From contig JBHGNT010000001.1 in NCBI GenBank assembly GCA_043228905.1, positions 7,626,001-7,690,000 of the forward strand: a stretch of DNA of 64,000 bases. The letters are read 5' to 3'. Positions 1 through 64,000 of the stretch are shown here, in pieces. Numbering within the stretch: the stretch's first letter is position 1; every line of letters starts with the position of its first letter. This DNA comes from Azolla caroliniana. Its lineage: Eukaryota; Plantae; Polypodiophyta. A program made the position numbers and the translations under genes. The notes under the pieces are model-generated. The model was not told the origin of the DNA. It ran no database searches and saw only the letters and a list, made by a program, of their open reading frames with translations.

Positions 1-818
1 TCTTGTGCTTTAGCAAGTTCTCCACATTTAGTATACATATTCACTAGTGCATTGCCAACGAGAACATGTTTTTCAAGCAAACCTTCTTTCAATATCTCAG
101 CATGTATTTCTTTTCCTTTTTCAAATGCTCGGATGCTACAACATGCTTTCAAGATGCAAACGAATGTGACGACATCAGGGGAAACACCTTGGCGTTGCAT
201 CCGATCAAAACAACTCAATGCTTCCTCACCAGGACCATGTTGGGCATATCCTGAAATTAATGCATTCCAACAAACCACATCCTGAATTGGAAGCTGATCG
301 AACACTTCTTGTGCTTTTGACATTGCACCACATTTGGTATACATATCAACCACCGCTGAGCCAAGCAAGATATCTTTTCCTAACAAACCCTCTTTGATGA
401 CATGACCATGCATTTCTTCCCCCTTTTCAAGAGATCCTATACTACCACATGCTTTTAAGATAGCAAGGAATGTGACCGAATTTGGCGAGATACCATCGTG
501 AACCATCATATCAAAACAATGCAATGCTTCATTACCTTGTCCTTGCTTTGCATATCCTGAGATCAATGCAGTCCAGGACACCACATCCTTCACACAAATC
601 TGATCGAACACATCTCGTGCTTTGGAAAGTGCCCCACATTTGGCATAAACATTGACCAAGGTGCTTCCAACACATGCGTTTTTCTCTAGGAGCCCGTTTC
701 TAGTGATTTCAGCATGTATTCTCTTGCAGTTGTCCAGCTCTTTTTTGGGAAGACATGCCTTCAATAGAGCTATATAAGTTGTGGCATCATCATGAGGTTT
801 GTGGTAATGGCTAGCCAT
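1..818 (-). CDS. PLS-class PPR protein (organellar RNA-editing factor type), 3' end runs off the window
   Basis: Manual translation from ATG at 818 gives MASHYHKPHDDATTYIALLKAC...VNVYAKCGALSKARDVFDQ..DVVSWTALISGYAKQG..PNSVTFLAILKACGS.., i.e. repeated P-L-S triplets. The frame is open to base 1, with an in-frame TGA upstream at 876-878. Confidence 0.92.
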   Translation of the reverse strand, partial: MASHYHKPHDDATTYIALLKACLPKKELDNCKRIHAEITRNGLLEKNACVGSTLVNVYAKCGALSKARDVFDQICVKDVVSWTALISGYAKQGQGNEALHCFDMMVHDGISPNSVTFLAILKACGSIGSLEKGEEMHGHVIKEGLLGKDILLGSAVVDMYTKCGAMSKAQEVFDQLPIQDVVCWNALISGYAQHGPGEEALSCFDRMQRQGVSPDVVTFVCILKACCSIRAFEKGKEIHAEILKEGLLEKHVLVGNALVNMYTKCGELAKAQ

Positions 819-3800
819 AGAAAGCTGTTGGCTTTCTTCTTCTTCTTCTTCTTCATCTTCTTCTATGCATTGTCCTCAAGTCTCCACACAGAAATCTACA
901 TTCTCTATGCTGGATGTGCATAGTTTCAAAGCCCTTTTTCTTAGTACCTCCTCTTAAAACTAATTAAGTCCTGCGAGGCGAGGTTGGTAAGCTCCATTCA
1001 GTTCTCTCTTGAGTCTCTCGGAAAGATCGCTTTCCGGCGACTATTCTTGGAACTCATTGGAACTAGCAATCTTTGTTGATAGGTTGTCACTTGGTCGGGT
1101 TCATGAAGCTCTCTCGGAATATATAGCATATTTGGTCTGTTATCGGCAAAGGAAGGTTTCCTCGAAGGTTCAAACATCCGGTCTCTTATTATCTCTTGGC
1201 AAAATTGAGTCTTGTGGTTGATTCATTGTTTCCAATAGTGGTTGATGTGTAGTGTATTATTTAGATTTTGGCCTGGGACTCACTAAGGTGAAGCAATCAC
1301 TCTTTTAAATATTGCTGAATCTTGGCATATTTGTATGAAATTAGGCTTATGCAAAAAACAATCCGTGAGGATAGCTATGAGGAGATGTGCAAGAATAGTT
1401 GGCTTTTGCGAACTATTTTGGGAGAAATGTTATAGGGACAACAATGGTTACTATGGAGACAATTTATAGACTCCATGTGGAAAAGGTGTTAAGTGATTGA
1501 AGGTAGCTTTTGGTGCAGCCAACACAAAGGCAATTGATTGATTGCGAGTAATCTTCACTAAGTGCAAAAGATAGCTAGCTCACATGGCACTGACATGGCA
1601 ACAAGTGATTGGTTGGTCGCAAAAATGTATGTGCAATAAGGTTGGACCAAAGTATTTGTAGAACACTAACCAAATGTGCAATTTGAAGAAGTGGTTTAGA
1701 CTATTGCCCAACTACCCAAGTATGAAACGAAATCGAGTAAAATTCAAATTTATGGTCCCACATAAGATTGTATCCAATGCCTTAGATTTACAAGACGAGT
1801 GCTTTACAACTAACCTATGTATAGAAATAAAGAAATGACTTAATTGTTGCAACCGTGATTTCTTTCTTTGAACATAGTTTGTTTACCAATGTTTATATTC
1901 AGGTTGTTTAGAAGATAATACATGAGAAATTGTCCCCTTATTCACTAACGGAAATTTTCATCGCCCACTTATTCAACACATTGTTATACTATGTTATTAT
2001 GCATAGAAGCAATTATGTTCCATCATGCATCTAGGAGCAAACAACTTGCACATTGTATGGGCAACAAGGGTGCCATCTCTATGTAGTTGTTACACTCAAC
2101 TTCTCCATGTTTGGCTCATTCATGCATACCATCTTTGATTTCGGGCATGCTATACACATCAATGATATAGAGGTATTTTCATTGGAAGGCTATGATTTCG
2201 GGCCTGCAAGAAAGCTCTTCATAGACCCAACATGATGAATGTCCAGGTATTTACGATATCCCGGGATAATGGCAATGAGAATAACAAGATAATTCCTTGT
2301 ATTTTGTGCTCAATTTAAAAGATATGTGTTTGCAATGACTCAAGATGACATTAAATGCATTTAAATTGTAGAGCAACACTCTTACTCTCTCTCATTTCTG
2401 AATCCATAAGCCATTGCATCAAGTAAATTTTGTTCAAGGTGAAATCATGCTCATATGTTTGGCAAAGTCGACATCCTTGGTGTTTCAGAGGAAACTTGTT
2501 ACTTGAATGTGTTAAAGAGTGATTTTTTGTTAGTACTAAGGATAATGCCTTTCCCTTGCCATTGAGGCTTTATTAGTACATAAAACTTCTGTAATTTTAC
2601 AGAGAAGAGATGGAAATCATACAGCTGAAAAGAGAGAAAACCATGCACAGGTTTAGCTGAAATATTGGGCATGGACAAGCTGTTATACACAATATATGCA
2701 CACATTCACATGGCCATAATTCAGTTAATTCATTAACACATTGTTTTTGCTAAACAAACTATGACTGTTATGTGAGAGATTCTCATGAAGTAATATAGAA
2801 AAGTCCATGTTAATGCACTATCTACACATTCTGTCAATTAATACAAGAAAAATAGGAGCTTATGTGACAAACTCTTCTCATTAAGTAGTTTTTGGGCAAT
2901 TTCCATGCTCAAAGGCAATAATATGGGTGATATTTTACAAATATAACAGGTTTCTTATTCATCTCAAGGTAAGGTAAACAGAAAAAATGTAAGCATTCAC
3001 CCTGATAGGAATGATTGTGCATATGTGTAACTTCGAAAAAAAAGATCTTCAGTCTACTTTAAGCGAAGACAACTTGTTTTAGGTACTAGAATAAATGGTT
3101 ACAACCAAGAGAGACAGATGTTTAACTGGCTATTCAACTGTTTGCAATACATTATTGTATCCTCATATGTTGACTCTGTTTGCAGTACATTGTTGTATCT
3201 TCATATGTGACTCAACAGTACCATACATTCTGTGCGATCAACCATACATAACCAGTTGAAGAAATCCATATCTTAAATATCAAGAAGAATTGCAATATTT
3301 CCTTGAAATGGATACATGACTATCCGATAGGTAAAAAATTTGAGTGTCCCATCAAGTTACAGTCACTTAGCTAGAATTTGGTGATTCAATTCAGTAAAAC
3401 TGATCATAAATGATTTTTAAGGGCATTAAGGTAATTGTCAAAGTTTCATACTTTTGTTCTAAATTCTGGATGAGAGCCCTGAAGATTTACAGTAATTACT
3501 AATAAGTAACTTTATTTTCCATTTCCCTAGTTTAACAGAATAGTGAGAGTGCCTAAATAAATGAAGTTCTGATTTGAAAATCAAATCCCATTAAAGCATA
3601 AATGGGACGTCGAGGCTCCTCTTATATTAGGTTAATTCATTCAACAATAAATAAGAGGCAGGGGTTGCATCACATTGTGTGTCATGTCTGGATGGCTCCG
3701 ACTACTTGTAACCTAACCACCATGACAGACATTCAACCTCTAGTCAATTTTAAGATATGTTACTTCATAATTGATATGGCTATTCACGGTGACTTATTAG

Positions 3801-6529: not shown

Positions 6530-9388
6530 TCAAGTTCTAGCAGATGCATAAACATTACTCATAGAAATATAAGCTGAGGCATAGGTGTCATCCAATTTCA
6601 TTGCATGCTCAAAAGCTAGTCTTCCAAGTTCCACACTCTGCCCTCTTTGACAAGCACCCAAGAGAGAAATCCACATTGGCAGATAATCCAACACTGGCAT
6701 CGTCATAATCATTGTCATTGCTTTATCGATATTCCCTGCCCTAGTAAAAAGGTCAACCATGCAAGTTTGGTGTTCTAAAGTTGGGATGATCCCATAGTCT
6801 AACCTCATACTTATAAAACACAACTGACCGCTATCCACCAAGCCTGAGTGTGTACATGCATTAAGCACAACTGTGAAAGTAACCAAGTCCGGCTCCACGC
6901 CATCCCTCATCATTTTGTTGAATATGTTGATAACGATATCCTCCTTTCCCACCTGCGCATATCCAGCCATTAATGCCGTCCATGAGACTACATCCCGAAT
7001 CTTAAGCTCGTCAAACACTTCTTGAGCTTTGGAAGGAGCCCCACATTTACTATACATATCAAGCAATGCATTTCCATACAAAACATCTTTCTCTAACAAC
7101 CCCGCTTTGATAATATCAGCATGTATTTCTTTGCCCTTGTCTATTGCCCCTACATTGCTACATGCTTTCAAGGCATAAAGCAAAGTGGAATCATCGGGAG
7201 AGAATCCTTCGCATTGCATTTGCTCAAAAAGGTTTAATGCTTCCTCATCATGTTCATTTTCGACATATCCTGCAATCATTGTGTTCCAAGACATTATGTC
7301 TCGAACTGGAAGCTTGTTGAATACCTCTTGCACTTTCGTCAGCTCCCCACATTTGGGATACATATCCAACAACGCATTGCTAACCAATACACTTACTTGA
7401 GATAACCCTTCACTGACAACCTTAGCATGTATTACCTTCCCTTGCTGAATTTCTCTTAATCTGCCACAAGCTTTCAACATACAAATATAGGTGAGTGCAT
7501 TTGGAGAAACGCCCTCACAATGCATCCTTTCAAAACACTTCAGAGCTTCCTCATTATAGCCATGCTGAGCATATCCTGCTATCAACGCATTGATCAAAAC
7601 TACATCTGTATTTGGAATGTGACTGAAGGTTTCTTGAGCTTTTGCTACTGCACCACATTTGACATACATGTCCACCAATGCTGTGCCAAGCAACACATCG
7701 TTTCCCAGCCCTTCTCTCATGATCTCAGCATGTAACTGTTTTCCCCTGGTGAGTTCTCCTATACTTGCACATGCTTTCAGCACAGAAACAAAAGTAAAAG
7801 CATCCGGAGAAAGGCCCTGAAGTTGCATCATTTCAAAACAGTTTACTGCTGCCTGCCCATAAACACCATTAGCATAAAGTTGAATGATTGTGTTCCAAGA
7901 GACTAAGTCCTGAACTGGAAGTTCATCAAACACTTCTAGGGCTTTTGTAAGCATGGAACATTTCGCATACATATCTATCAAAGCATTGCCAACAGAGATG
8001 TCAAACAACCCTTCTTTGATTACATAAGCATGTATTTCTTGACCCTTATTTGATGCTTGTAAGCTGCCACAAGCTCTCAATACGGAAACCAAAGTGATCG
8101 TATTTGGTGAAACACCTTCACGCTGCATCTCCTCAAAACAATGCAATGCTTTATCACCTTGTTTGTGTTGCATATATCCAGCAATGAGGGCAGACCATGC
8201 AACCACATCTTGAACACGAAGTTCATCGAAAACATTTTGTGCTTCAGTTATTGCACGGCATTTAGCATACATATCAACCAATGCATTGCCAATTGGAATA
8301 TCCCTCTCTAAAAATCCTTGCTTAGTAACAATTGCATGCATTTCTTTGCCCTTATGGATCGATGTTATACTGCCACATGCATTCAAGATATACACACAAG
8401 TAACTTGATTTGGAAAGAGGCCCTCTAGATGAATTTGGTGAAAAGCTTGAACTGCTCTTTCTCCATATCCATGTTGCACATAGCCTGCAATGAGTACATT
8501 CCAACAAACCACGTCATGCATCCTAACCTGATCAAACGCCTCCTGTGCGTTTTCTACTTTACCACACCTGCCATACATATCCACCAATGCAGTCCCAAGC
8601 ACGGTGTTTGTTTTCAACCAGCCCTCTCTAACAATTTCAGAATGTATTTCTTTCCCCTTATCAGCTAAACTGATGCTACCACAAGCCTTCAGTATACAAA
8701 CATATGTGACAGCATTAGGAGAGAAACCATTTTTTTGCATTGATTGAAAACACTTGAATGCTTCTTCAGCATACTCATGTTGGGCATATGCAGAGATTAT
8801 TGTGTTCCAAGAGGCCACATCCCAAACCAGTGAAAGGTCATCAAATACTTGTCTTGCTTTCACAAGGTCGCCACATTTTGCATACATATCCACCATGGCA
8901 GTCCCAACCAGAACATTTGTTCTTTGCAATCTTTCTATTGCAATTTTGGTATGTATTTGTTTGGCTAATGCCAAACAAGATTCTCCAGTGCTACCACAAG
9001 CTTTTAAGACACAAACAAAGGTTACCGAACTCGGCAACAGGGCCTCACATTGCATCCTTTCAAAACAATGCAATGTTGCCACACCATGACCATGTTGGGC
9101 ATATCCAGACATGATAGTATTCCACGATATGACATCCCTAAGACAAAGATTGCTGAAGAACACTTCCTCCGCCTTTGCAATTACACCACATTTTATGTAA
9201 ACACTCATCAGAGTACTGGCAATGTATACGTTTTCGTCAAGTAGTCCTCCTTCGAGGATGTCGCTGTGAATCGCGATGACTTTATCGAGGTCTTTTTGTT
9301 TTGCATGAACCTTGAGGGTAGCCACAAGGGCAGTACCCTCTCCCAGCTTCTGGAGTTTTCCATGTATACCTTCATGAGCCTTCTTCAT
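6530..9388 (-). CDS. PLS-class PPR protein, E subclass (about 26 P/L/S motifs + E1 + partial E2, no DYW), 952 aa, intronless
   Basis: Eight S motifs (DMY.KCG type) alternate with P (DVVSWN..I.GY) and L (P..VTF..VLKAC) motifs. These are followed by P2-L2-S2 (EHQTCMVDLFTRAG), E1 (WISLLGAC) and a truncated E2 (AYISMSNVYAS*). Confidence 0.95.
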   Translation of the reverse strand: MKKAHEGIHGKLQKLGEGTALVATLKVHAKQKDLDKVIAIHSDILEGGLLDENVYIASTLMSVYIKCGVIAKAEEVFFSNLCLRDVISWNTIMSGYAQHGHGVATLHCFERMQCEALLPSSVTFVCVLKACGSTGESCLALAKQIHTKIAIERLQRTNVLVGTAMVDMYAKCGDLVKARQVFDDLSLVWDVASWNTIISAYAQHEYAEEAFKCFQSMQKNGFSPNAVTYVCILKACGSISLADKGKEIHSEIVREGWLKTNTVLGTALVDMYGRCGKVENAQEAFDQVRMHDVVCWNVLIAGYVQHGYGERAVQAFHQIHLEGLFPNQVTCVYILNACGSITSIHKGKEMHAIVTKQGFLERDIPIGNALVDMYAKCRAITEAQNVFDELRVQDVVAWSALIAGYMQHKQGDKALHCFEEMQREGVSPNTITLVSVLRACGSLQASNKGQEIHAYVIKEGLFDISVGNALIDMYAKCSMLTKALEVFDELPVQDLVSWNTIIQLYANGVYGQAAVNCFEMMQLQGLSPDAFTFVSVLKACASIGELTRGKQLHAEIMREGLGNDVLLGTALVDMYVKCGAVAKAQETFSHIPNTDVVLINALIAGYAQHGYNEEALKCFERMHCEGVSPNALTYICMLKACGRLREIQQGKVIHAKVVSEGLSQVSVLVSNALLDMYPKCGELTKVQEVFNKLPVRDIMSWNTMIAGYVENEHDEEALNLFEQMQCEGFSPDDSTLLYALKACSNVGAIDKGKEIHADIIKAGLLEKDVLYGNALLDMYSKCGAPSKAQEVFDELKIRDVVSWTALMAGYAQVGKEDIVINIFNKMMRDGVEPDLVTFTVVLNACTHSGLVDSGQLCFISMRLDYGIIPTLEHQTCMVDLFTRAGNIDKAMTMIMTMPVLDYLPMWISLLGACQRGQSVELGRLAFEHAMKLDDTYASAYISMSNVYASART

Positions 9389-9496
9389 GTCTTCTTCTTA
9401 TCCCTCTTCATGTCTTCTTCTTCTTCCTCCTCTTCCTCCTCATGTCTGCTTCTTCTTCTTCTTCTTCTTCTTCTTCCTCCTTTTCCCTTCAGCCAT
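9385..9496 (-). promoter_or_regulatory. Three chained Lys/Arg-rich uORFs (9440-9496, 9408-9443, 9385-9411), each stop overlapping the next ATG (ATGA)
   Basis: Read directly from the sequence: MAEGKRRKKKKKKKKKQT*, MRRKRRKKKKT*, MKRDKKKT*, then the main ORF MKKAHE. Transcription of this region is assumed. Confidence 0.5.
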
Positions 9497-23290: not shown

Positions 23291-24959
23291 GCCTTCTTAT
23301 ATAGGTTAAACCTTAGGCCATTGTTTATCTATCTCATACCTATTGCACTATTATGAACGATAAAGTAATGACACACTCTAAAGTTATCTCCCATAGTAGG
23401 ATTGAAAATAACTCAATCCTTACTTTCCGTTCTCAATGAATTAGCCCACAATTAACCCTAAGATTAGAGAACTATGGTTACGATTATAGTCCTAAAAATA
23501 GATCTCTTTGTACAAATGACTCACAATGTTCAAGACCTTTACTAATAAACGTCTCGATTGAGATTACACATTTTCTCAATGTTCAAGAACTTTATTAATG
23601 AACAAAATTCATGTGATGATTGGGTCGGGTTGAATATGTTAGAAAACACAGTTAAATTGATCAACAACAAAGCGTTGTATCAAAATACATATGAGCATTG
23701 GGGCAAAATGTGCATATTTGATTGGTCACATAATTGAGGCCCCAATGTTCCCTATCACATCGAAGCGAGTATGAAATAAGCCACGTGGAAGCAATGGTTG
23801 GGATGTCGGATGATGGATCTTTATTAAGAGACTAATTAAACTCTAAGAAGAGCTTTAAAAGTACACATAAAAACATATAAGCATGTTCTCTATTGAACGG
23901 GGAAACCACGCATCACGAGGATAGGGTCGCGAAACTAGAGGATCGAGAGTGATTGCACAAGCACTCTTGTCCAATCCACTCCCAATTCTCCATAATAACA
24001 TATTCTAGGTATTCTCAGTCTCATTCCATGCATTAAGAGGGATAGTGTGTCCCCACACTTCTACTCCATGAAGCAAAACCAATGTTACCATGGGATTGAC
24101 ATTAGCGTCACTTCCCATCCACAATTAATATAATAGCTTTGGTTGCATTGATTTTCCGACATATAACAACTTCTCCAATTATTTTGAAGCCTAAACTCAA
24201 AGCATACACTCCATTTATTTGTGGACGGTATTTTGTTATGTACACATGATGTAGATGAGGGTAGGCCACTAATATTTACAAAACATAAGTGAAGGGTAGG
24301 TAAATTAATGTTAGAAAGGGACTAACGTGATCGGATAGAGAAAATGATAGGTGCATGCACCATCATGATATTGACAACCAATGAATGGAGAGTCTAAAAG
24401 TACATCTATTGGAGTGTATAGGAACCCTCATAAGACACATCGTGTTAGAATGTTTAAGGCAAAATACACATACATAGTCAATGACTTTCCTCACTTGTAC
24501 CCCCCACGCCCACGACCCATCACACATTGAAGAGAATGTGAGCTAAGTTGCATTCAACCAATACTAGAGAGGTGGACAAAGCTATGGGTTGTACGATGAG
24601 TGTAGTTTCCTTCTTCCACGCTGAATATTGTAATAAAGTTTGATGCAACATATGCAATATAATGTGTGAACCATGAACCACCCCATCTTTATCGAGTTGT
24701 GATATGATGACATTGCGAAAAAAACCTTCAGTGGAGAAGAAACTCGAGATTAATAATAATGCTAGTGGTTACGTGTGAGATTACGACAGAATTAGTTCAA
24801 GACTAGTGAAGGCCACGAGCGGAAGAGTGAAAAGTTGTGACGAAATTTAATGTGATCAACAAGTGTGATAACTATGTATGAGGTGAAGATAAAGCACCTT
24901 ACACGTTGATGAAAAAGGGAGTTTGTATGTGTGTGTTTGGTTCGGTTTTTATTATGAAT

Positions 24960-41359: not shown

Positions 41360-41807
41360 TGTTAGAGCTTAATCCTAATGTAAGCATGAGATAAGGAAAT
41401 AATAGATAGATATAAAGAGAGGAGAGAGAAATAAGGGTATCCACCCGACCACCCCTGAGTGAAGGGATCAATACGGATTCGAGCCTTGATGGCGTCCCAT
41501 ACTATCGCCATGGCATCGAGTCATACCTGGTACTGGCACACTCACTACAAGAGTTTGATCACCATGAGGTTAGAGTCTCGACATAGCCAAAAGATCCCAA
41601 ATGAGGGTAGCTTGGCCTCATATTTATAGCCAGACCTAAGGCCCCAAGGTCAGATCACACTTGGCCTTAATGGGTTGTCTCAATCCCTCGGATTAAAAGT
41701 AATCCTCCCTTCTTTACACTCTCGATTAACTCTCACACTTTATCCATGTGTATAGAATACTACAATACAATCTTACCATGGGATATTATATGGTCATGCC
41801 CGTAACA
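41360..41807 (-). mobile_element. Solo LTR (448 bp)
   Basis: TGTTA...TAACA termini, perfect 5-bp TSD ACATA (41355-59, 41808-12), and a minus-strand TATAAATA at about 41621-41628. Confidence 0.85.
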
Positions 41808-50799: not shown

Positions 50800-51313
50800 T
50801 GTCACGGACACACCAAGCATGCACTAGGACGTAGCACAGATGATGGGGCTACGAGCGATGGATGAATTTGGAGCTAGATGTGACGAGGCTAAGAACTGTA
50901 GATGTTGTGAGCGACATGAAGGCATGAAGATAGAAATAAAGATCAAGGAGACAGAGATGAGACAAAACGAGAATACTAGATTCATGTTTCAATGACTGGT
51001 GTTGAATCCCTTGAAAGGGACCAAGGATGTTACAAGTATTTATACAATTTCCGAGATTGAATATCTCTAGAATATACTCGAGAAATATCTCAAGAATATA
51101 CCCGTTTAGAATATACCACAGAATAATTCTAGAATATACTAACGACTAGAATATTCTCGAATGTACTATACAATAGACTCTACAATATATACAAGTTCAC
51201 AATCCGTGTGGACAATTCACAAGAGTTTTTATATGGTTAATAAAACACAATGTACTATGTGTGTTAAAGGTCAAAGGTTCGAGTCTAGAATGTGACATTA
51301 TCCCCCCTGTTAC

Positions 51314-53585
51314 TGTTACAAAGGTGTTGTATGGTTTTAGGGTTAGGGATGACGATTATGATAGCATAATTATAATGATGGGTGTGATGATGGAGATAAG
51401 CATTGTGGAATGGTGGAGATGGTGAATGGTATGATGGTGAGAGAGATCATGAAGATGTTGACAAGCATTGAGAAGCATTGCGGGGTGGGGGGTGGTGCCT
51501 AGAATGGCACCACCCCCCTCCCAAGGGGGTTCAATGTTAAGGGGAGGGAAGAGAGAGAGGGAGAGAGAGATTGAGAGAGAAATGGTTGTTATTGTATTCA
51601 TTCATTCCCCATAAGGGGTTAAATAGGTACAAAGGGGTAGATCCACAAGGGTGCAAGCACCCTTGGCATTCACACCTAGTCACTTACTCACACCTCTTTG
51701 TATCTACCACACTCACACTTACATTCGCACTCATAATCGTATAAAGTCACACATACATATCCACACATTACATCTTTCACCCTCACTTATCACAATTATC
51801 AATCATCCGTACATCTCGTACGGTAACACAAGATGGCACGCCCGTGGGAGAGTGCCTTGCACGTCGATCCCACATGCCTTGATCATAAATTTTCTTCGAC
51901 CGGAATTTCCATCGGTCCTCTCAACAATTGACTCCCTCGATCGGAGTACTTGACTCAAACATCTTCGTCGGTCAGCGAATCTTCATCGACACAAACATTC
52001 TCATTCTGTCAGCTCACAAACTTTGGTAACATCATTCGGGTCGCCAAAAAGACGTTGTGTGTATGTGTGTTCTTCTTTGTATCTTGTGAATTGTGTGTGG
52101 ATCACGTCCATTTCTTTTAGGTTCATGAGTTTTTAACATTTCGTAGGTGCCCTTTGATTTTTTAAAATTTTGACAATGCCATCATGTTTTTCGAAATTCT
52201 TCGGATGCTCTGGGGTTTTCAAAACTCCTCGAATGCCCCTTATCATTCTCTTTTTACCTCTTTTTCCTTTTCTTGTTTCCTTTCTTTTTCTCTTGCTTCT
52301 GTCGTTTCCCTCCTTTCTATCTGTCTGTCAGATTGTCTCCTTCGATTCCTTCCTTCTTCTTCTTCTTCTTCTTGATTTCTTCTTCTTCAACGTCTCTTTC
52401 TCTGTGTTCTCTAGTATTCTTCTCTCGCGTGCTTCCTTCTTCCATCTTCTTGGTGTTAAACTCTGCTTCTTCTCCTTCTTTTGACATTCTTTTCTTCTTG
52501 TTCTTCTCTTTCTCCTTCTCCTTCTCGTTCTTCGTCCTTGTTCTTCGTTTCTGTCTCCTTTTCATCGCCGCTCCTTTGGCCGCTACTGTTCAGACTTTGG
52601 CTATCCGGTCATTGTCCCGGCTGCCGCTTCGACTGCTGTCTGGCCACTCCAACCGCTCCAGTTTCTCCTGTCCGGTCACTCTCCGGCCTATCCGACCGCT
52701 TGAACTACTGTCAGTCTGTCTCCATCTTCGTCGTTGTCTGGCGTCGTCCGGTCTGGCCGCCTCTGTTCCGGCGCCGTTCAGCCACTCCGACCGGTCTTCG
52801 GTAGGTCTCCGGCCGGCGCTTCTCCAGCCTCTCCTCTGTCGATGTCGTTGTTCTAGCCATTGAACCATCTTAGTCCGGCTCGTTCCGGTCCGTACTGGCC
52901 GGTTTTCTAGCAGTCGGTTCAGCTGCTCCCATCTTTGTTCATCTTCTCTGGCTCTGTGGGCGTCTTCTTGGTTGCTATCTGGTCGTCACTCTTCTTGGCC
53001 GCTGTTCGTTCCAGTTGTTTGTCTGTTTCTTTTCTGTCTCGTATCTCTGTTCCTTCTGGTCGCCTTTCTGTTTTTTTCTTTGGACCCCATCCTTCTCGTT
53101 GCTTTCTCTTCTCTTTTGCAATTAGATCTATGCCAAATAGACCGAAGAAAAACCAACAAAACACACTCGAAAAGACCTTAGCTCGTAGAAAAATCGTGCA
53201 ACAATGAATTTGGCATTTTCATTCCCATTTCTCGTACACTCCCACATGTTGCTTCCATTCCTTGTTAGTTCGTTGCACAATCGTTCCGACAATCAATCAT
53301 CAATCTACCATTTCCTGCTTCTTATGCACATCATGGTCGCCATTTGTTGCACATTGTCGTCAATTCCATTTCTTGCAGATCATCACCATGTAACATTCTT
53401 CATTTTCCTTGCGCACAACATCACCTTGTTGCATTCCTCAATGGCTTTCAACCACCATCACCATTTCCTGCACGTCGTCCATTTGATTTCTTGCATATTT
53501 CGTCGTTGCCATGTCTTTGCCGTGTAGTAGTCTTCGACTTCGTCTTCTTCAAAGGGGGGTCGCCTTAGTGGTCGACAAAAACTGT
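51314..53585 (+). mobile_element. Nested Tat-like Gypsy derivative: LTR 51314-51828, tRNA-Arg-type PBS, non-coding internal region
   Basis: TGTTAC...GTAACA LTR followed by TGGCACGCCCGTGGGA (51834-49). A PPT-like AAAGGGGGG lies at about 53551. No matching second LTR was found. Confidence 0.6.
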
Positions 53586-53964
53586 GTTACTCCTTAGGGC
53601 CAGACAATGGCTTAACACAAGGTGTTTACGGAAGACACTTTACTAAAGGGGTGTTACGGCGAGATAACTTAAGACACAACGATTAATAAGACTTAATTGG
53701 GTATTTAGCAATATGGCATTAGATTGATACACGCGTACGATAGAACAATTAGTACAGAACGGTAATCAACACTTGAAGATAAAACAAGAAGCTCTATTAA
53801 TTATCCGTCAAAGTTTTACATTGTAACCGCGCCTTTATATAGATCACCGGTGCTGAGTACAAAACGGTGCCAACCGACACCTGTTCGGAACCGGTCCGGA
53901 ATAAGGTTTTAAATGGTAATAGTTATGTCGCCTTCCCAAATCGGTCGTCGCCTTAAGGGAATAT
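53585..53964 (-). mobile_element. Possible additional solo LTR fragment
   Basis: Imperfect inverted ends (TGTTACTCCTTAGGGC / GCCTTAAGGGAATA) and a minus-strand TATATAAA at about 53834-53841. No clean TSD. Confidence 0.4.
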
Positions 53965-54044
53965 TGTTAATGAAAGTCTTAGACCACCTCCAAAGTATTT
54001 TGTAAATCGTAGAAAAGGAGTAGCCCTTCCACAACACGAGGTAT

Positions 54045-54945
54045 TGAACACCAACGAGCATGAGCGACCATGTGCGGTCCTCAGGGGGAGCACGAACACC
54101 AATGGGCATGAGCGATCATGTGTGATCCTCACTGAGAACTGGAACATGAACAACAACAACAACGGGCATGAGCAACCATGTCGGTCCTTGTCGGGATCTG
54201 GAACACGAACAATAGTTGGAATGAGCGACCACGTGCGGTCCTCACCGGAGAATGGAACACGAACGAGAGTGGTCGACCATGCAACCCTCACCAAAGACTA
54301 GAACACAAACGGGAGTGAGCGACCATGTGGCCCTCACCGGAGACTGGAACACTAATAGGTGAAGGAGTGCAAGTGACGCGGTCAACTCGACTTCTTCTAT
54401 TATGAGAGGGTAAATAGTCGAGGTTGACCCAAAACATGGCACAAACGGCAACGCTAGTGAGAAATTGATGCGATCCACACAAGGAAAGTGAGTGGTTGTG
54501 ATAACCCACCGAAATTAGAAGGTGTGCGATCGAAATCGATCCTTGTCAAAAGAGAGTGGAGTGAAATGTAGACCGAAATGAAAAATGGAATGTAACTGAG
54601 CAACGATTTGATCCCCACCCCGAAAGTGAGTGGTTGTAACCCCACCAAAAACTAGGAAGGTGAGCGATCAAAGCGATCCTCGCAAAAGGAAAGTGGAGTG
54701 AAACTTGAACTGAAATGAAAATGGAGTGCAAGCGAGTGATGATCCGATCCCCACCAGGAAAGTGAGTGGTTATGACCCCCATCGGAACAAGAAGGTGAGC
54801 GATCAAGATCGGTCATCGCCAATGGAAAGTGACACGAGACTTGAATTAAAATGAAAACGGAGTGCAAGCAAGCGATGATCTGATCCCCACCAAGAAAGTG
54901 AGCGGTTGTGACCCCCACCTGAACTGGGAAGGTGAGCGATCGAAA
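54045..54945. repeat. Two tandem arrays inside the non-autonomous LTR element: ~55-bp units (54045-54350) and ~137-bp units (54485-54945)
   Basis: Recurrent GAGCGACCATGTG.GG.CCTCAC.GGAGA.TGGAACAC and AAAGTGAG.GGTTGT.ACCCC...GATCCCCACC. Confidence 0.8.
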
Positions 54946-55635
54946 GCACTCACCACCAAAACCGTGATGCAAAATGATACCTAAAAATGATGACAAGTAG
55001 TGTTGATGACGACGATGGTTGGGCGAAGAGGTGCTGAAAATGATGATGTCAAAGATAAGGATGTTGACGATGGTAACTCCGGAAGCAAGGATGGTGATGA
55101 TGATAACTCTAAAAGCAAAGGCAATGACGAAGACGGGTGGTGCTCCCAATTGGAAGGGATTCAAACTGTCATGGACACACCAAGCGTGGACTAGGACGGA
55201 GCACAGATGATGGGGCTACGAGCGACGGATGAACTTGGAGCTAGATGTGACGAGGCTAGGAACTCTAGATGTTGTGAGCGACATGAGGGCATGAAGGCAG
55301 AAATAAAGATCAAGGAGACAAAGATGAGACGAAACGAGAATACTAGATTCATGTGTCAATGATTGGTGTTGAATCCCTTGAAGGGACCAAGGATGTTACA
55401 AGTATTTATACAATTTCCGAGATTGAATATCCCTAGAATATACTCGAGAAATATCTCGAGAATATACCCGTTTAGAATATACCACAGAATAATTCTAGAA
55501 TATACTAACGCCTAGAATATTCTCGAAGTTCACAATCCATGTGGACAATTCACAAGAGTTTCTATATGGTTAACACAACACAATGTACTGTGTGTGTTAA
55601 AAGTCAGAGGTTCGGGTCTAGAATGTGACAACCAT

Positions 55636-58864: not shown

Positions 58865-61725
58865 ATGAGGTAAAATCATCCATGTTCGAAATGGGCCATA
58901 AAGTCGACGCTGATATAGAGCTATGGAATAAAAGAATCGGCCCCATCAACCTCCAAAAGCTCAAGGTGATGCGATCAAAAGTAAGTCGTCATCGGACTCC
59001 CTACATTTAAAGAGAAGGATATCAATGGAGTATGTGATGCATGCTAATTCGGCAAGCAACATCGGCAACTATTACCGAAAGAGAGGAATGTGAGCAAAGG
59101 CCTACTGGACGTAATCCAGTTGACAAATGTGTGGGGACCTACTTAGACGGGAACATTCAGAGGATGTTTATACTATGTCACCTTTATACATGACTTCTCT
59201 AGGCACACTTGGATCTTCTCCATGAGGCAGAAAAGTGAAGTGTTCGCACACTTCCAAAAATTCAAAAGTGAAGTCGAAAAGGAAACTGGTTGGCATGTTA
59301 GATGCCTACGGTCGGACGGAGGAATAGAGTACTTTTCCGATGATTTTTCGATTCATCTCCGCAAAGAAGGAATTCGACAAGAATTTATCTGTCGACACAC
59401 ACCTCAACAAAATGGAGTAGCCGAAGGAAAAATCGGCACATATTGGAGGTGGCATGAGAAAAACCTACCAAAGTCGTACTGGGCAGAAGCAGCAACCACA
59501 ACCGTATACCTCATGAATCAGTGCACAACATCAAGAGTGCACGACATCACACCCCATGAGAAATGTTTTGGGAAGAAGCTAGATTTTTCTCACATCAGGA
59601 TATTCAACTCAATTGCTTATGTACATATTCCCGACGAGAAGTGACAGAAGTTCGATCTTAAGTCGAAGAAATGTATCTTTGTAGGGTACTCACTCGAAGA
59701 AAATGGGTACAAGTGTTATAATCCTTCTACCCGAAAAGTTCGAGTCGAGACGTCGTTTTCGACGAGTCGACATCATGGTATGAACTAGAATCAAATTCCA
59801 CTCTGGCCCCACCCGACCAAGAGACACAAGATGCCGGTCGATCGTGGTATCTAATAGAACAAAGCCCGATCACGACTAGGCTTAGTAGAGCCTCCGAGAA
59901 AGGAAGGAAAAAACTACTGGAATATGAAGATGATCAATCTAATGACAACAAATAAACTCACTCACACAATAGTGAGCTCGGTGCCTTTGATGTACCTATC
60001 ATGAGGACACTTGGTGTAAAGAAAGCCATTGCCATAGCCAATGAAAAACTCTGACACTCCACCTGTGAGAAGAACATCGCCAGCCGATTCGGTTAGAACG
60101 ACTATATGGTGTACCATTATGCCTTTATGATGAAGGTGGCGACTATTCGAGAACCGAAAAGTTTTTCTGAAGCCGCTAAAGATCCTCGATGGATCAAAGT
60201 GATAAACGAGGAGATGCAAGCTCTCAATAAGAACAAGACATGCGATCTCGTCCCTCACTCACCTCACAAGAAAGCGAATTGTTCGAATTGTGATTGAACT
60301 TGCAATGGCAAAATGGTGGCACCTCCACTAGATGGACGTAAAGAATGTCTTTCTTCAAGAAGAAGTAGAAGAGGAGGTCTTCATGATCCAACCAACCGAG
60401 TTGTGAATTGACCAACCATCTGACCGTAGTTTGCTAACTCAAGAAGCCGTTGTATGGTTTGAAGCAAGCACCACATGCTTGGCATTTGACGATTACTGAG
60501 TATCTTCACGAAATCAACCTTCGAATGTCAAAATCGGACCTCATCCCCTTATATAAGAAGCGATTCTGAAAGCCCGATTGTCATCATCCTATACATGAAT
60601 GATCTAGTCATAAGAGGACAGAATTTAGCCGACATCACTAAGGTCAAATCCCTCCTGTCCAACAGATTCGAAATAAAAGACATGCAAGAGCTCCATTACT
60701 TCCTCGACATAAAAGTAAGTTGGACACCTGTCTGGATCATGATCTCCCAACGACACTATATCCTCAACTTGTTATACAAGTTTGGGATGACTGAGTGCCG
60801 ACTAGGCCGGCTACAACGCCTACCGATGATTGACTGCAGGGTCCATCTTCTCTCTCGGTAGTGGAGCTATCTCATGGAGTAGTAAGAAGTCGCCGACCAT
60901 CGCACTTTCGAGTACGGAGACCAAATACATGGGTGCGGTTGTGGCTGAATATGAAGCCGTATGGCTTAAGCAAATTCTGAAAGACCTTGGCGTCTGCATC
61001 AACGAGTTAGTCCTGATCTATTGTCACAATTTTAGCCGCATCCATTTGGCTTGGAACCCAGTATTCCATGTTCGGACAACGGATATCGAGGTGCACTACC
61101 ACATCATTCGAGAACGTGTCATTGCAGGGGATGTCGACCTTCAACATATCAGTACCAATCTTCAAACGGTCGACATCTTCACGAAAGCTTTGGGAATCGA
61201 CACGTTTCGATTGAGCTTGGTCTTTCAATCTACGACTTGCCAAGCTTGAGAGGGAGTGATAGTCGACCAGTGTCGTGATGTGGTGCATTGAATGTGGAAA
61301 AAGCCGATGAACAAGGGCCAAAATGTCTATGTGCAATGTGCATGCACACAAAGGCGATTATTTGTGCACATGCACATTAAAATGGAAAATGAAGGGTGCG
61401 AAGGAGGCACACAAAATCGTGGGGGGTTGAAAGTAAGAGAGAGGAGAGATGAAAAGTAGGAGAAAGAAGGAAATATGTGTCGTATAAATATTAAGTAAGA
61501 GAGAATTAATGGCTTAGTGATTAGAGAAATTGACCTCTAACTAGAGATGCACGGTTCGTATCCAATTTGATAGTATAACATGATTTAAGGAGACTTACTC
61601 CTTTTGCATTAAATCTAAATGTATAAAAGGAGTATGAGGGTCACCATTACTTTCTAACATTAACTATGTGTCATAGAATCATATTCTATGACACATAACT
61701 AATGAGTTCCTACATTCCCCATGAC

Positions 61726-61958
61726 TGTTAAGAGTCTATTACTAATCAATAGACCAAACTAAGTAAAAGAAGGAAAATAGATTGGATAGAAGAACCCGTT
61801 CCACCCATCCTAATATCCGGCGGTATGGTACGTCAGTGGTAGGTCAGTTATGTCTAGATCATAGCTCGGGGGTGGTCGGGTGGAACGGGTTCTTCCATCC
61901 AATCTATTTTCCTTCTTTTACTTAGTTTGGTCTATTGATTAGTAATAAACTCTTAACA
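61726..61958. mobile_element. 233-bp palindromic MITE-like element with 81-bp inverted arms
   Basis: Arms 61726-61806 and 61878-61958 differ at 2 positions. TGTTAAGAG...CTCTTAACA termini and perfect 5-bp TSD ATGAC. Confidence 0.9.
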
Positions 61959-63661
61959 ATGACACATGAGCTTCTATAGTTGCTAGAGAGTGAGTGAGTG
62001 GTTTAGTGAGAGGGTGACCTTATATAAAGCACCCTCCTCATACTTTGTAAAGTGCCGGTTAATCTTCTATGTAATGTTATTATCCTTGTACTTGCTATTC
62101 TCTACTCATGTCAATATACATCTTGAGTATTCTATTTTCCTATCTATCTTGTGTCTCTCCTCTCTCCTTTTTTACACACACATAACACACCTCTCTAATC
62201 TATTCCACTGGATAGAATCACACTTGATTCTTTACGCGTCACTCTTTCCTATAGTGTTGATGTAGGATCATTGCCTTAGGTCAAGCACTAGGTATCAAAT
62301 ATATCTTAACACAATTTGCAACAGATATGTATCAAATACTTGTGCTCTAATCTCCAGGTGCTAGGTTTCTCTCAAATAACGACAACTCAAATTCAAAAAA
62401 CAATTGAGCCAACGTTAATTTTCTTCATACCTATGTTGAAATCCTTGTATTTGAAAAGGCGAAGTTGCAATTTCCACCTCTTGATGGTAAAATATAAATC
62501 ACATGGTGACTTTTTGTATTTTCAATGGCTACTACCATGACTTTGGAAAAACCCACATTAACTAATAGGCCATTCCATTCACAAAGAGGTAACATGTTGT
62601 ACCTAAAAGTTTTCGAAACTTATGTTAAAATAGGCCAAAAACTAGAACCTCCTATGTATAAATTGAAACTAAGATAGTGAAAATGTTGAAAAGGCCAAAT
62701 TTTCTCACGTTCTACCAAAGCTTCTTGAATGAACTCTTCTAGTTAACCAACAAATAAAATAGATAGAGTAGGTGATAGATCACATCCTTATTTCACTCCC
62801 ATGGTGAGCATGATCTCTTTAGAAAAGTTATTTTCAATCTTCAACCAACATTTTACTCGATAATATAAGCGAGCCAAATTTGCTTCCACATGGAAAATAA
62901 GTAGCTTCGTCTAAATAAAATAGATGTCAATATAACTTGAGGGGAGAATGAATACCTAAATATGCTTCTAGATGTTTTCAAAGCTCAAAAACTACACTTA
63001 CTATTTGTGAAATTAGCCAACTAGTTGTGTCAATGTGCATGATGAGCAGACTTGTCTATCACTACCATGTTTATGTTTTGTCTATAACACCTTTAGTTTT
63101 GTGTGGAAAAACAGAAGTCTGTGTAAAACTGAGTTGTAACTTGTAATGTAGGGGCATATTGTTCTTGCGGCCAAGCCGACTATATGAGCAACAAGTCTTC
63201 GTGATGATGTTCAAGAAAATATGTGGGGGGCTACAATGAAGTCATTCCATACAAACCTAATATCTCGGTGGATGCCCACGATGAAATCAATCCATACTGC
63301 CTAATCTCGGTGTATGCATTTAGGGCGATGGGATTAATTATTAGATAGTGAAGAGTATATTTTCCAAGAGTGTGTACTTTATTCAAATCTACATAATGTA
63401 CAACCCAAACGTATTGTATTGGATGCAGCAAAAGTATAAGTTCAAATTTTACAATATTTATTACACAACATGACCGTGTCACATGGGAGTGGAGCCCCAC
63501 CTTTGAAGGTTATGACCTCCCCCATTAAATGTTAAAACCAATGGATCTTAAGGATTGGGAAGAGAGAAAAGTGATGCAGTGATGATAAGCTCAAGAAATG
63601 TTGTGTAAGGCTAAAAAAAGCTATTAGAGAAAGAGAGGGAAGGAGGGAAGGAGGGAGAGAC

Positions 63662-64000
63662 ATGGCATATGTGCAGGTTGATCAAGATATAAGAGTGCGG
63701 GTTGTGAAGGAAGAGATGGTGAAGCCGAGCAGCAGGATAAGTAGAAGCAGCAATGGAAGTAGGGAGGGCGAATCGAGTGTGGTGGAACAAATGTTTGTGT
63801 CGTCCATCGACATGATCGGCCCCAAGGCTCCACACTTTGGTCGAATTCTCTTCTACGAGGCGAGCCCCACCCTAGGCTTCGGGGGACATCACGAACGCAT
63901 GGACAACATCATGAAGAGGTCATTGGGGTTGGCCTTGGACGAGTTCTACCCGCTCGCGGGACGCTTCCACATGGATGCCAATGGCCGGCTCCACATGGTG
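63662..64000 (+). CDS. BAHD-family acyltransferase, N-terminal part (runs off the window)
   Basis: MAYVQVDQDIRVRVVKEEMVKPS...FVSSIDM...ILFY...MKRSLGLALDEFYPLAGRF, the BAHD N-terminal LK.SLS..L..FYPLAGR signature. Confidence 0.88.
   Translation, partial: MAYVQVDQDIRVRVVKEEMVKPSSRISRSSNGSREGESSVVEQMFVSSIDMIGPKAPHFGRILFYEASPTLGFGGHHERMDNIMKRSLGLALDEFYPLAGRFHMDANGRLHMV

What the first reader, a model, noticed from the sequence alone, without database searches (positions are those of the whole stretch)
61721..61963. Palindromic mini-element apparently built from two LTR U5 ends, with an integrase-type footprint
Seen: 81-bp near-perfect inverted arms around a 71-bp spacer, TG..CA termini and a 5-bp TSD (ATGAC). 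That footprint is typical of retroviral-type integrases rather than common MITE transposases (TA, TAA, 8-9 bp TSDs). The arm and adjacent spacer read CCACCCGACCACCCCCGAG on the minus strand, nearly identical to CCACCCGACCACCCCTGAG about 80 bp inside the U5-side end of the solo LTR at 41360, which also begins TGTTA. Inference: a fold-back of an LTR end that was integrated as a unit, or a Ginger-like non-autonomous DNA element. If transcribed it would form a long hairpin and a possible siRNA source against the parent LTR family.
Basis: partly seen in the sequence, partly recalled or inferred. Interest (0 to 1): 0.7.

Follow-up and report, generated by a model that had tools for sequence, protein, structure and literature searches.

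The report
One-off fold-back of a retrotransposon end
This 233-base palindrome is the tail end of a common plant jumping gene joined to a mirror copy of itself and inserted with a clean scar; it is likely a single copying accident that cannot spread, not a new family of mobile elements.

Summary
Confirmed: 61726-61958 has 81-bp arms (79/81 identical), TG..CA ends and an ATGAC duplication; empty-site copies of the host repeat lack exactly 238 bp. It is not two ends around a foreign spacer. Right arm plus spacer are the last 152 nt of an ordinary 474-bp LTR (best copies 93% identical), and the left arm is an inverted copy of the last 81 nt. A Met-type primer site follows this end in L081, so it is U5. 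The sister family encodes a chromodomain Gypsy integrase. No fold-back family was seen: no listed contig piece of four runs bridges the junction, and 15 of 16 informative parent loci continue as normal LTR. The Ginger reading fails. Likely origin: aberrant minus-strand cDNA with two U5 ends, integrated by the family's integrase and trimmed at the centre (0.6); rival, a template switch in a solo LTR after insertion (0.27). siRNA production is untested and the parent's promoter is deleted. One weaker U5-out fusion lies in L009/L060. The scan noted similar inverted-end accidents before on other DNA (e1-7146264, e1-10619871, e1-10621211).

The parts
61721..61725 (.). [quoted passage not shown]
   Evidence: empty-site joints skipping 238 nt in X1-X3; paralog L079 without the insertion
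61726..61806 (-). Left arm: inverted copy of the last 81 nt of the LTR U5 end; keeps the family's common letter at both arm mismatches
   Evidence: 24 of 27 and 22 of 27 family arms share the left-arm state
61806..61807 (.). Fold-back junction, 1-nt overlap; in the parent it falls in the 5-nt loop of a 6-bp hairpin
   Evidence: hairpin in 10 of 15 parent copies
61807..61877 (+). Spacer: continuing R/U5 sequence of the parent LTR (LTR positions about 321-391 of 474)
   Evidence: L041 320-474 aligns to 61806-61958 at 92.9%
61843..61848 (+). Three clustered private changes that turn this hexamer into a copy of 61832-61837; possibly one slippage event
   Evidence: table 3; (0 of 25 family copies share it)
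61878..61958 (+). Right arm: U5 end of the parent LTR, ending in CA
   Evidence: primer site follows this end in L081
61959..61963 (.). Right copy of the target-site duplication
61257..62216 (+). Host: 3' LTR of a decayed Copia element (purine tract 61248-61256, TATA-like box at 62021); the insertion lies in U3, 63 nt upstream of the box; right boundary approximate
   Evidence: pieces ending at 62205-62235
41360..41807 (-). Solo LTR of the sister family (448 bp, TG..CA, ACATA duplication); shares conserved R/U5 blocks with the element
24234..24410 (+). Decayed U3 fragment of the element's own parent family (LTR positions 1-178, 82%)

Best explanation
The element is the last 152 nt of a high-copy LTR retrotransposon's U5 end fused to an inverted copy of its last 81 nt, likely made once by faulty reverse transcription and likely inserted by the family's own integrase into the U3 of an older Copia LTR. 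Shown: LTR and U5 identity, asymmetry, 1-nt junction overlap, 5-bp scar, loss of TATA box, primer site and purine tract. Inferred: minus-strand cDNA starts at the tRNA primer and so begins exactly at the U5 terminus; the nascent strand likely stalled at the small hairpin at nt 146-162, folded on itself and was copied back, giving a duplex U5 end. Two such U5 ends (both ends of one unfolded molecule, or two hairpin cDNAs of one particle) were then joined to the target with a 5-bp stagger, and repair at the palindrome centre removed about 70 nt from one side. It is predicted to be dead: no promoter, no primer site, no purine tract, and integrase does not excise.
For: Parent LTR of 474 bp in L041, L059 and L004 with TATA 277-279 nt from the U5 end. 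Met-type primer site after the end in L081 and L086 of family A and in 8 family-B loci (10 of 99 loci with enough flank). L059 shares its purine-tract region with L026, whose ORF is a Gypsy integrase with chromodomain. The junction lies inside the predicted strong-stop span (about 246 nt, using TATA+31). The break sits in the loop of one of two perfect hairpins of 5 bp or more in nt 82-250; such loops cover 14 of 169 positions in L041, L059 and L081 (noticed after the fact). A nascent strand ending at that hairpin is predicted to pair its 3' end (0.66, fourth of 166 lengths). The arms differ at 2 sites; the nearest of 27 family arms differs from the left arm at 3, and the family median is 8, so both arms come from one template or siblings. 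Self-priming of strong-stop DNA is known in HIV-1 (PMC6088434, passages). HIV-1 integrase prefers U5/U5 pairs in vitro and leaves 5-bp duplications (PMC8742673, section 8). Inverted junctions usually carry asymmetric deletions (PMC8701086, passages).
Against: No direct trace of the cDNA route exists. Folding gives no pairing of a 153-nt nascent end with nt 81 (it pairs locally near nt 114-120), so a second, deletion step must be assumed. In vitro both ends of one 355-bp DNA were not integrated together, and substrates under 200 bp gave little concerted product (PMC8742673, section 8 and passages). Self-primed products were not detected in disrupted HIV-1 particles (PMC6088434, passage). The two LTR ends share TGTTA, enough for a chromosomal template switch to give the same structure. 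41 of 351 family arm pairs also differ at 2 sites or fewer. The junction is not bridged by any listed contig piece.
Confidence: 0.6

Rival explanations
1. A normal solo LTR inserted first; later a replication or repair template switch replaced its U3 part with an inverted copy of the U5 end, landing back at the 5-nt inverted repeat shared by the LTR termini, so that the old scar was kept.
For: Solo-type ends dominate: only 10 of 99 loci have a primer site after U5. U3 and U5 termini share TGTTA. The break is at a hairpin loop. No bending of a short duplex is needed. Both arm mismatches and three spacer changes are on the right part, as expected if that part has its own history, although a later copy should then have inherited them. 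Such switches are recalled, not from a call.
Against: It needs two precise switches, the second skipping about 320 nt to land exactly on the terminus; the sixth base is of U5 type. The left arm lacks the right arm's two private changes. Only empty sites were seen, and no loose end listed behind 61725 reads as the U3 start (24 of 750 loose ends listed).
Confidence: 0.27
2. A member of a small amplified MITE-like family derived from an LTR end and re-mobilised in trans.
For: Both ends are intact integrase sites; the insertion is clean; 13 of 30 parent loci end inside the spacer, where a fold-back could hide; runs X1 and X3 differ from the window's genotype.
Against: None of the 32 listed pieces (the longest of 471, from 456 contigs laid in X1, X3, X6, X9) bridges the junction; all listed loose ends there read as ordinary LTR. 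15 of 16 parent loci with 40 nt or more upstream continue as LTR interior, one (L077) breaks off elsewhere, none folds back. No primer site, purine tract or promoter.
Confidence: 0.07
3. Assembly artefact: a fold-back chimera inside a high-copy repeat.
For: No listed contig piece spans the junction, also in X6, which carries window-identical flanks (0 differences at 61400-61536 and 62258-62345).
Against: Exact TG..CA ends, a 5-bp duplication that matches empty sites, two arm mismatches and return to the host in register. X6 and X9 have a depth of about 3 and the tool warns that a hole proves nothing.
Confidence: 0.04
4. Non-autonomous Ginger/Tdd-type DNA transposon with 81-bp terminal inverted repeats.
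For: Ends fit TGTNR; arm length is within 40-270 bp; TDD-4/5 make 5-bp duplications (PMC2836005, passages).
Against: The parent has two unlike ends, a TATA box, a primer site and a purine tract. Only one kind of sequence follows the arm inward. Ginger1 and most Ginger2 make 4-bp duplications (PMC2836005).
Confidence: 0.02

Closest known systems
Solo LTRs of plant chromovirus Ty3/Gypsy elements (Neumann et al. 2019, PMC6317226; passages)
   Same: Sequence is R/U5 of such an LTR; TG..CA ends; 5-bp duplication; Met-type primer site in the parent; chromodomain integrase in the sister family.
   Different: U3 is absent and replaced by an inverted U5 end; 233 bp instead of 474; no promoter. The clade (Tekay, Galadriel, Reina, CRM) was not determined.
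Self-primed minus-strand strong-stop DNA of HIV-1 (PMC6088434; passages)
   Same: A cDNA that starts at U5, folds at a hairpin and is copied back gives this symmetry.
   Different: Described as an in-vitro dead end and not detected in disrupted particles; here the product is chromosomal, has a scar and an asymmetric centre.
Complex LTR insertions made by template switching (Sabot and Schulman 2007, PMC1950507; abstract)
   Same: Abnormal reverse transcription gives a rearranged cDNA that is still inserted as one unit.
   Different: Those fuse two parent elements into a large daughter; this is a 233-bp inverted piece of one LTR end.
Ginger1 and Ginger2/Tdd DNA transposons (PMC2836005; passages)
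   Same: TGTNR termini and long inverted arms.
   Different: 4-bp duplications in most; transposase-coding parents with two inverted ends; here the parent is an LTR element.
Mu killer and LTR hairpins as siRNA triggers (PMC11624286; passages and reference list)
   Same: An inverted duplication of an element's end could give hairpin RNA against the family.
   Different: No transcript or promoter is shown here; the family already has very many copies.

Membership tests
LTR-derived sequence (U5 end) | Colinear with the terminus of a TG..CA LTR | tested here: met
   L041 320-474 aligns to 61806-61958 at 92.9%
LTR-derived sequence (U5 end) | Primer-binding site directly after this end in full elements | tested here: met
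   L081 and L086; the tRNA-iMet label of the motif is recalled
Chromovirus Ty3/Gypsy parent | Gypsy integrase with chromodomain upstream of the 3' LTR | tested here: inconclusive
   Met for sister family B (L026: PF17921, PF00665, PF24626, PF00385); family A is linked only by a similar purine-tract region (L059) and LTR homology
Solo LTR | Complete U3-R-U5 between duplications | tested here: not met
   U3 and TATA box absent
TRIM or other non-autonomous LTR retroelement | Two direct LTRs with primer site and purine tract between | tested here: not met
   Arms are inverted; the spacer is plain R/U5
MITE | Terminal inverted repeats, short, non-coding, with duplication | tested here: met
MITE | Many copies of the same unit at independent sites | tested here: not met
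   No junction in 32 listed of 471 pieces or in 16 informative loci; the window's own genome is not held, so a few copies cannot be excluded
Ginger1 / Ginger2 | 4-bp duplication (CCGG/CCGT or within RTATAY) | tested here: not met
   5-bp ATGAC; PMC2836005 passages
Ginger/Tdd | Integrase-only autonomous partner with the same inverted ends | tested here: not met
   The parent has unlike ends and LTR signals; no genome-wide search was possible
Killer-type hairpin locus (Mu killer-like) | Transcribed hairpin that yields siRNA and silences the family in trans | not testable with these tools
   No small-RNA data were laid; both read-laying runs went to DNA runs

The most novel reading that the evidence does not exclude
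This is an in-vivo fossil of self-primed strong-stop cDNA: two U5 hairpin ends captured by one intasome. U5-out/U5-out fusions then form a recurrent, overlooked class of integrase-made palindromes in this genome (one more candidate in L009/L060, one distinct locus among 47 LTR contigs with enough flank), a steady source of MITE-shaped hairpins that can feed siRNA back on the parent family and a route from LTR ends to inverted-repeat elements.
Probability: 0.2. Interest if true: 0.6.

Novelty: new variant of a known kind. Interest (0 to 1): 0.3.

Why it matters
As a single dead insertion it matters little: it shows that an LTR end can be folded back and still carry a perfect integrase scar, and that such pieces mimic MITEs or Ginger elements in annotation. 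It would matter more if a genome-wide count showed many independent U5-U5 fusions breaking at strong-stop hairpins: that would be in-vivo evidence for a reverse-transcription dead end known from test tubes, and would give a testable source of hairpin RNA against LTR families.

Tried and rejected
No whole genome is held, so no direct copy count. Rfam: 10 matches up to E 10, all far below gathering scores, none meaningful. Metagenome scan with a 24-nt arm motif: 0; viral contigs with the 20-nt motif: 0. Five of the 52 loci with enough flank are chance non-LTR hits (L001, L032, L082, L097, L100) and were set aside; L069 and L084 were dropped from the 32 hits as family B. The opposite-strand joints 61802-7 to 61842-4 looked like other fold-backs but are what an ordinary parent copy gives when laid on the inverted arm. 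Summed depth over the arm (about 2.5e5 in X1 against 37-56 for single contigs) suggests thousands of parent ends but is no copy number. No RNA holder listed; no evidence either way. Direct self-priming at nt 81 is not predicted. The bacterial promoter scan is irrelevant to a plant. No matching duplication was found around the four complete or near-complete family-A LTRs examined, probably because contigs switch copies inside repeats. Sequence look-ups in earlier findings with the element and the solo LTR, and a look-up near this place, gave nothing. Paper searches for a described class of inverted or U5-U5 LTR insertions gave 0 papers, 1 that by its listing is unrelated, and none on point among 20 listed of 152; subscription journals and older manuscripts are not searched, so absence from print is not established. 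No supplements were read.

Full report
Observation. The element spans 61726-61958. Its arms (61726-61806, 61878-61958) match at 79 of 81 positions, the ends are TG..CA, and ATGAC flanks both sides. It is the longest of 116 inverted pairs in the window and folds far better than shuffles (z -21.7, 0 of 200). The likeness to the 41360 end of the solo LTR is real: an end-anchored alignment beats 2000 of 2000 shuffles, the other end does not (849 of 2000 reach it); without the shared 20-mer the arm is only weakly alike (23 of 2000) and the spacer not at all (1365 of 2000).

The scar. No genome is held, so I laid contigs of public runs. In X1, X2 and X3, one or two contigs each skip exactly 238 nt, the element plus one ATGAC; X6 shows none. 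These may be the orthologous empty allele or paralogs of the host repeat. The host is the 3' LTR of a decayed Copia element (pol pieces; purine tract at 61248); paralog L079 runs from a purine tract through the same U3 without the insertion. The insertion lies 63 nt upstream of the host's TATA-like box, so the host promoter would read away from it (inference).

The parent. A scan of metagenome contigs with the shared 20-mer gave 103 loci, nearly all from two related LTR families. Thirty belong to the element's family (32 hits less two cross-hits). Its LTR is 474 bp in L041, L059 and L004, with a TATA box 277-279 nt from the end. L041 positions 320-474 align to 61806-61958 at 92.9%, and positions 392-474 align, inverted, to the left arm. 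So right arm plus spacer are one piece of LTR, and the left arm is a copy. In L081 a Met-type primer site follows this end at once; 10 of 99 loci with enough flank carry one (the tRNA label is recalled). The end is therefore U5. L026 of the sister family has a Gypsy integrase with chromodomain before its 3' LTR, and L059 of the parent family shares its purine-tract region. The parent is likely a chromovirus (PMC6317226, passages); I did not test the clade. That the plant is a fern comes from earlier notes (e1-10617911) and was not tested.

One copy or a family. On 61762-61852, 456 contigs of X1, X3, X6 and X9 were laid. None of the 32 pieces listed (the longest of 471) bridges 61806/61807; listed loose ends continue either as arm-to-spacer or as LTR interior. 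Of 30 parent loci, 16 reach 40 nt or more past the junction: 15 continue as LTR, L077 breaks off elsewhere, none folds back; 13 end inside the spacer and one has 5 nt only. Against this reading: X1 and X3 differ from the window in the flanks, X6 and X9 are shallow, and short-read contigs break in repeats. A large family is unlikely; a few copies, or in principle an artefact, are not excluded.

Mechanism. Shown: asymmetry, a 1-nt overlap at the junction, loss of promoter, primer site and purine tract. The arms differ at 2 sites (95% interval 0.3-8.6%), both derived on the right arm; the nearest of 27 family arms is 3 from the left arm and the family median is 8, with 41 of 351 pairs at 2 or fewer. 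The break lies in the loop of a 6-bp hairpin found in 10 of 15 parent copies; such loops cover 14 of 169 positions in nt 82-250, and a strand ending at that hairpin is predicted to pair its 3' end (0.66, fourth of 166 lengths). I noticed this after the fact, so it is a hint. Inferred: minus-strand cDNA, which begins exactly at the U5 terminus, self-primed there and was copied back; two U5 ends were joined to the target; the centre then lost about 70 nt on one side. Each step has a precedent: self-priming in HIV-1 (PMC6088434, passages), preferred use of U5/U5 pairs with 5-bp duplication in vitro (PMC8742673, passages and section 8), asymmetric deletions at inverted junctions (PMC8701086, passages), and 5-bp duplications in most plant LTR elements (PMC6911290, passages). 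Against: no direct pairing with nt 81 is predicted; both ends of one 355-bp DNA were not integrated together in vitro, which favours two hairpin molecules over one; and a template switch in a solo LTR after insertion gives the same structure, because the two LTR ends share TGTTA. I put these at 0.6 and 0.27.

Ginger and siRNA. The ends fit TGTNR, but Ginger1 and most Ginger2 make 4-bp duplications (PMC2836005, passages) and the parent is an LTR element with unlike ends. Hairpins of element ends can trigger silencing (PMC11624286, passages), but nothing here shows transcription, and the element has no promoter of its own.

Recurrence and novelty. Among 47 LTR contigs with enough flank (52 less five chance hits), L009 and L060, two assemblies of one locus, hold another fusion with U5 ends outward. 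Its arms are only 76% alike where both contigs agree, reach into U3, and have no readable scar, so it may be a deletion between neighbours. Unchecked earlier notes describe inverted-end insertions in this genome (e1-10619871, e1-10621211) and in a fungus (e1-7146264), all read as accidents; they are leads, not support. Template-switch insertions are in print (PMC1950507, abstract). My searches found no paper on U5-U5 insertions, within the library's limits; papers and 53 other than those cited were seen as listings only.

Verdict. A real, clean, most likely unique and dead fold-back of an LTR end; a new variant of a known kind of accident. Interest 0.3.

Noticed in passing
L009:971-1623 and L060:1134-1779 (orientation): Two assemblies of one locus (99% over 1623 nt) hold a second fusion with U5 ends facing outward, in sister family B: a 388-nt inverted LTR piece joined just after the TATA box of a sense piece. 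The arms are 76% alike upstream of the motif (family median 85%), both reach into U3, and the right end differs between the contigs, so no scar can be read.
   Followed up: partly
window 50800-55630: 4.8-kb LTR element on the minus strand (LTRs 498 and 464 bp, GCCAT/ACCAT flanks). Instead of a tRNA site, 11 nt after the 5' LTR are complementary to the LTR at TATA+31, as in self-priming Tf1/Tcn1 elements (Tcn1 self-priming in PMC6317226 passages, the 11-nt Tf1 detail recalled).
   Followed up: partly
window 61658-61704: 47-nt imperfect palindrome in the host Copia LTR, 17 nt left of the insertion; very high summed depth and present in paralog L079, so it belongs to the host family.
   Followed up: partly
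window 63575-64000: Open frame with a weak Transferase match (PF02458, below cut-off), BAHD-like; first in-frame ATG at 63662, about 1.7 kb right of the element.
   Followed up: no
window 41440-41459 and 61865-61884: The 20-nt G-rich block and a second block about 45 nt upstream are conserved between two LTR families whose other parts differ; function not determined.
   Followed up: no
L042:49-424 and 1949-2248: Two other imperfect fold-backs (74-86% and 78%) unrelated to the LTR ends, probably MITEs.
   Followed up: no
window 1-875 and 6530-9397: Long minus-strand frames with repeats spaced about 306 nt, PPR-like by recall; not scanned.
   Followed up: no
window 59147-61249: Decayed Copia pol in several broken frames (rve, RVT_2), upstream of the host LTR.
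   Followed up: partly
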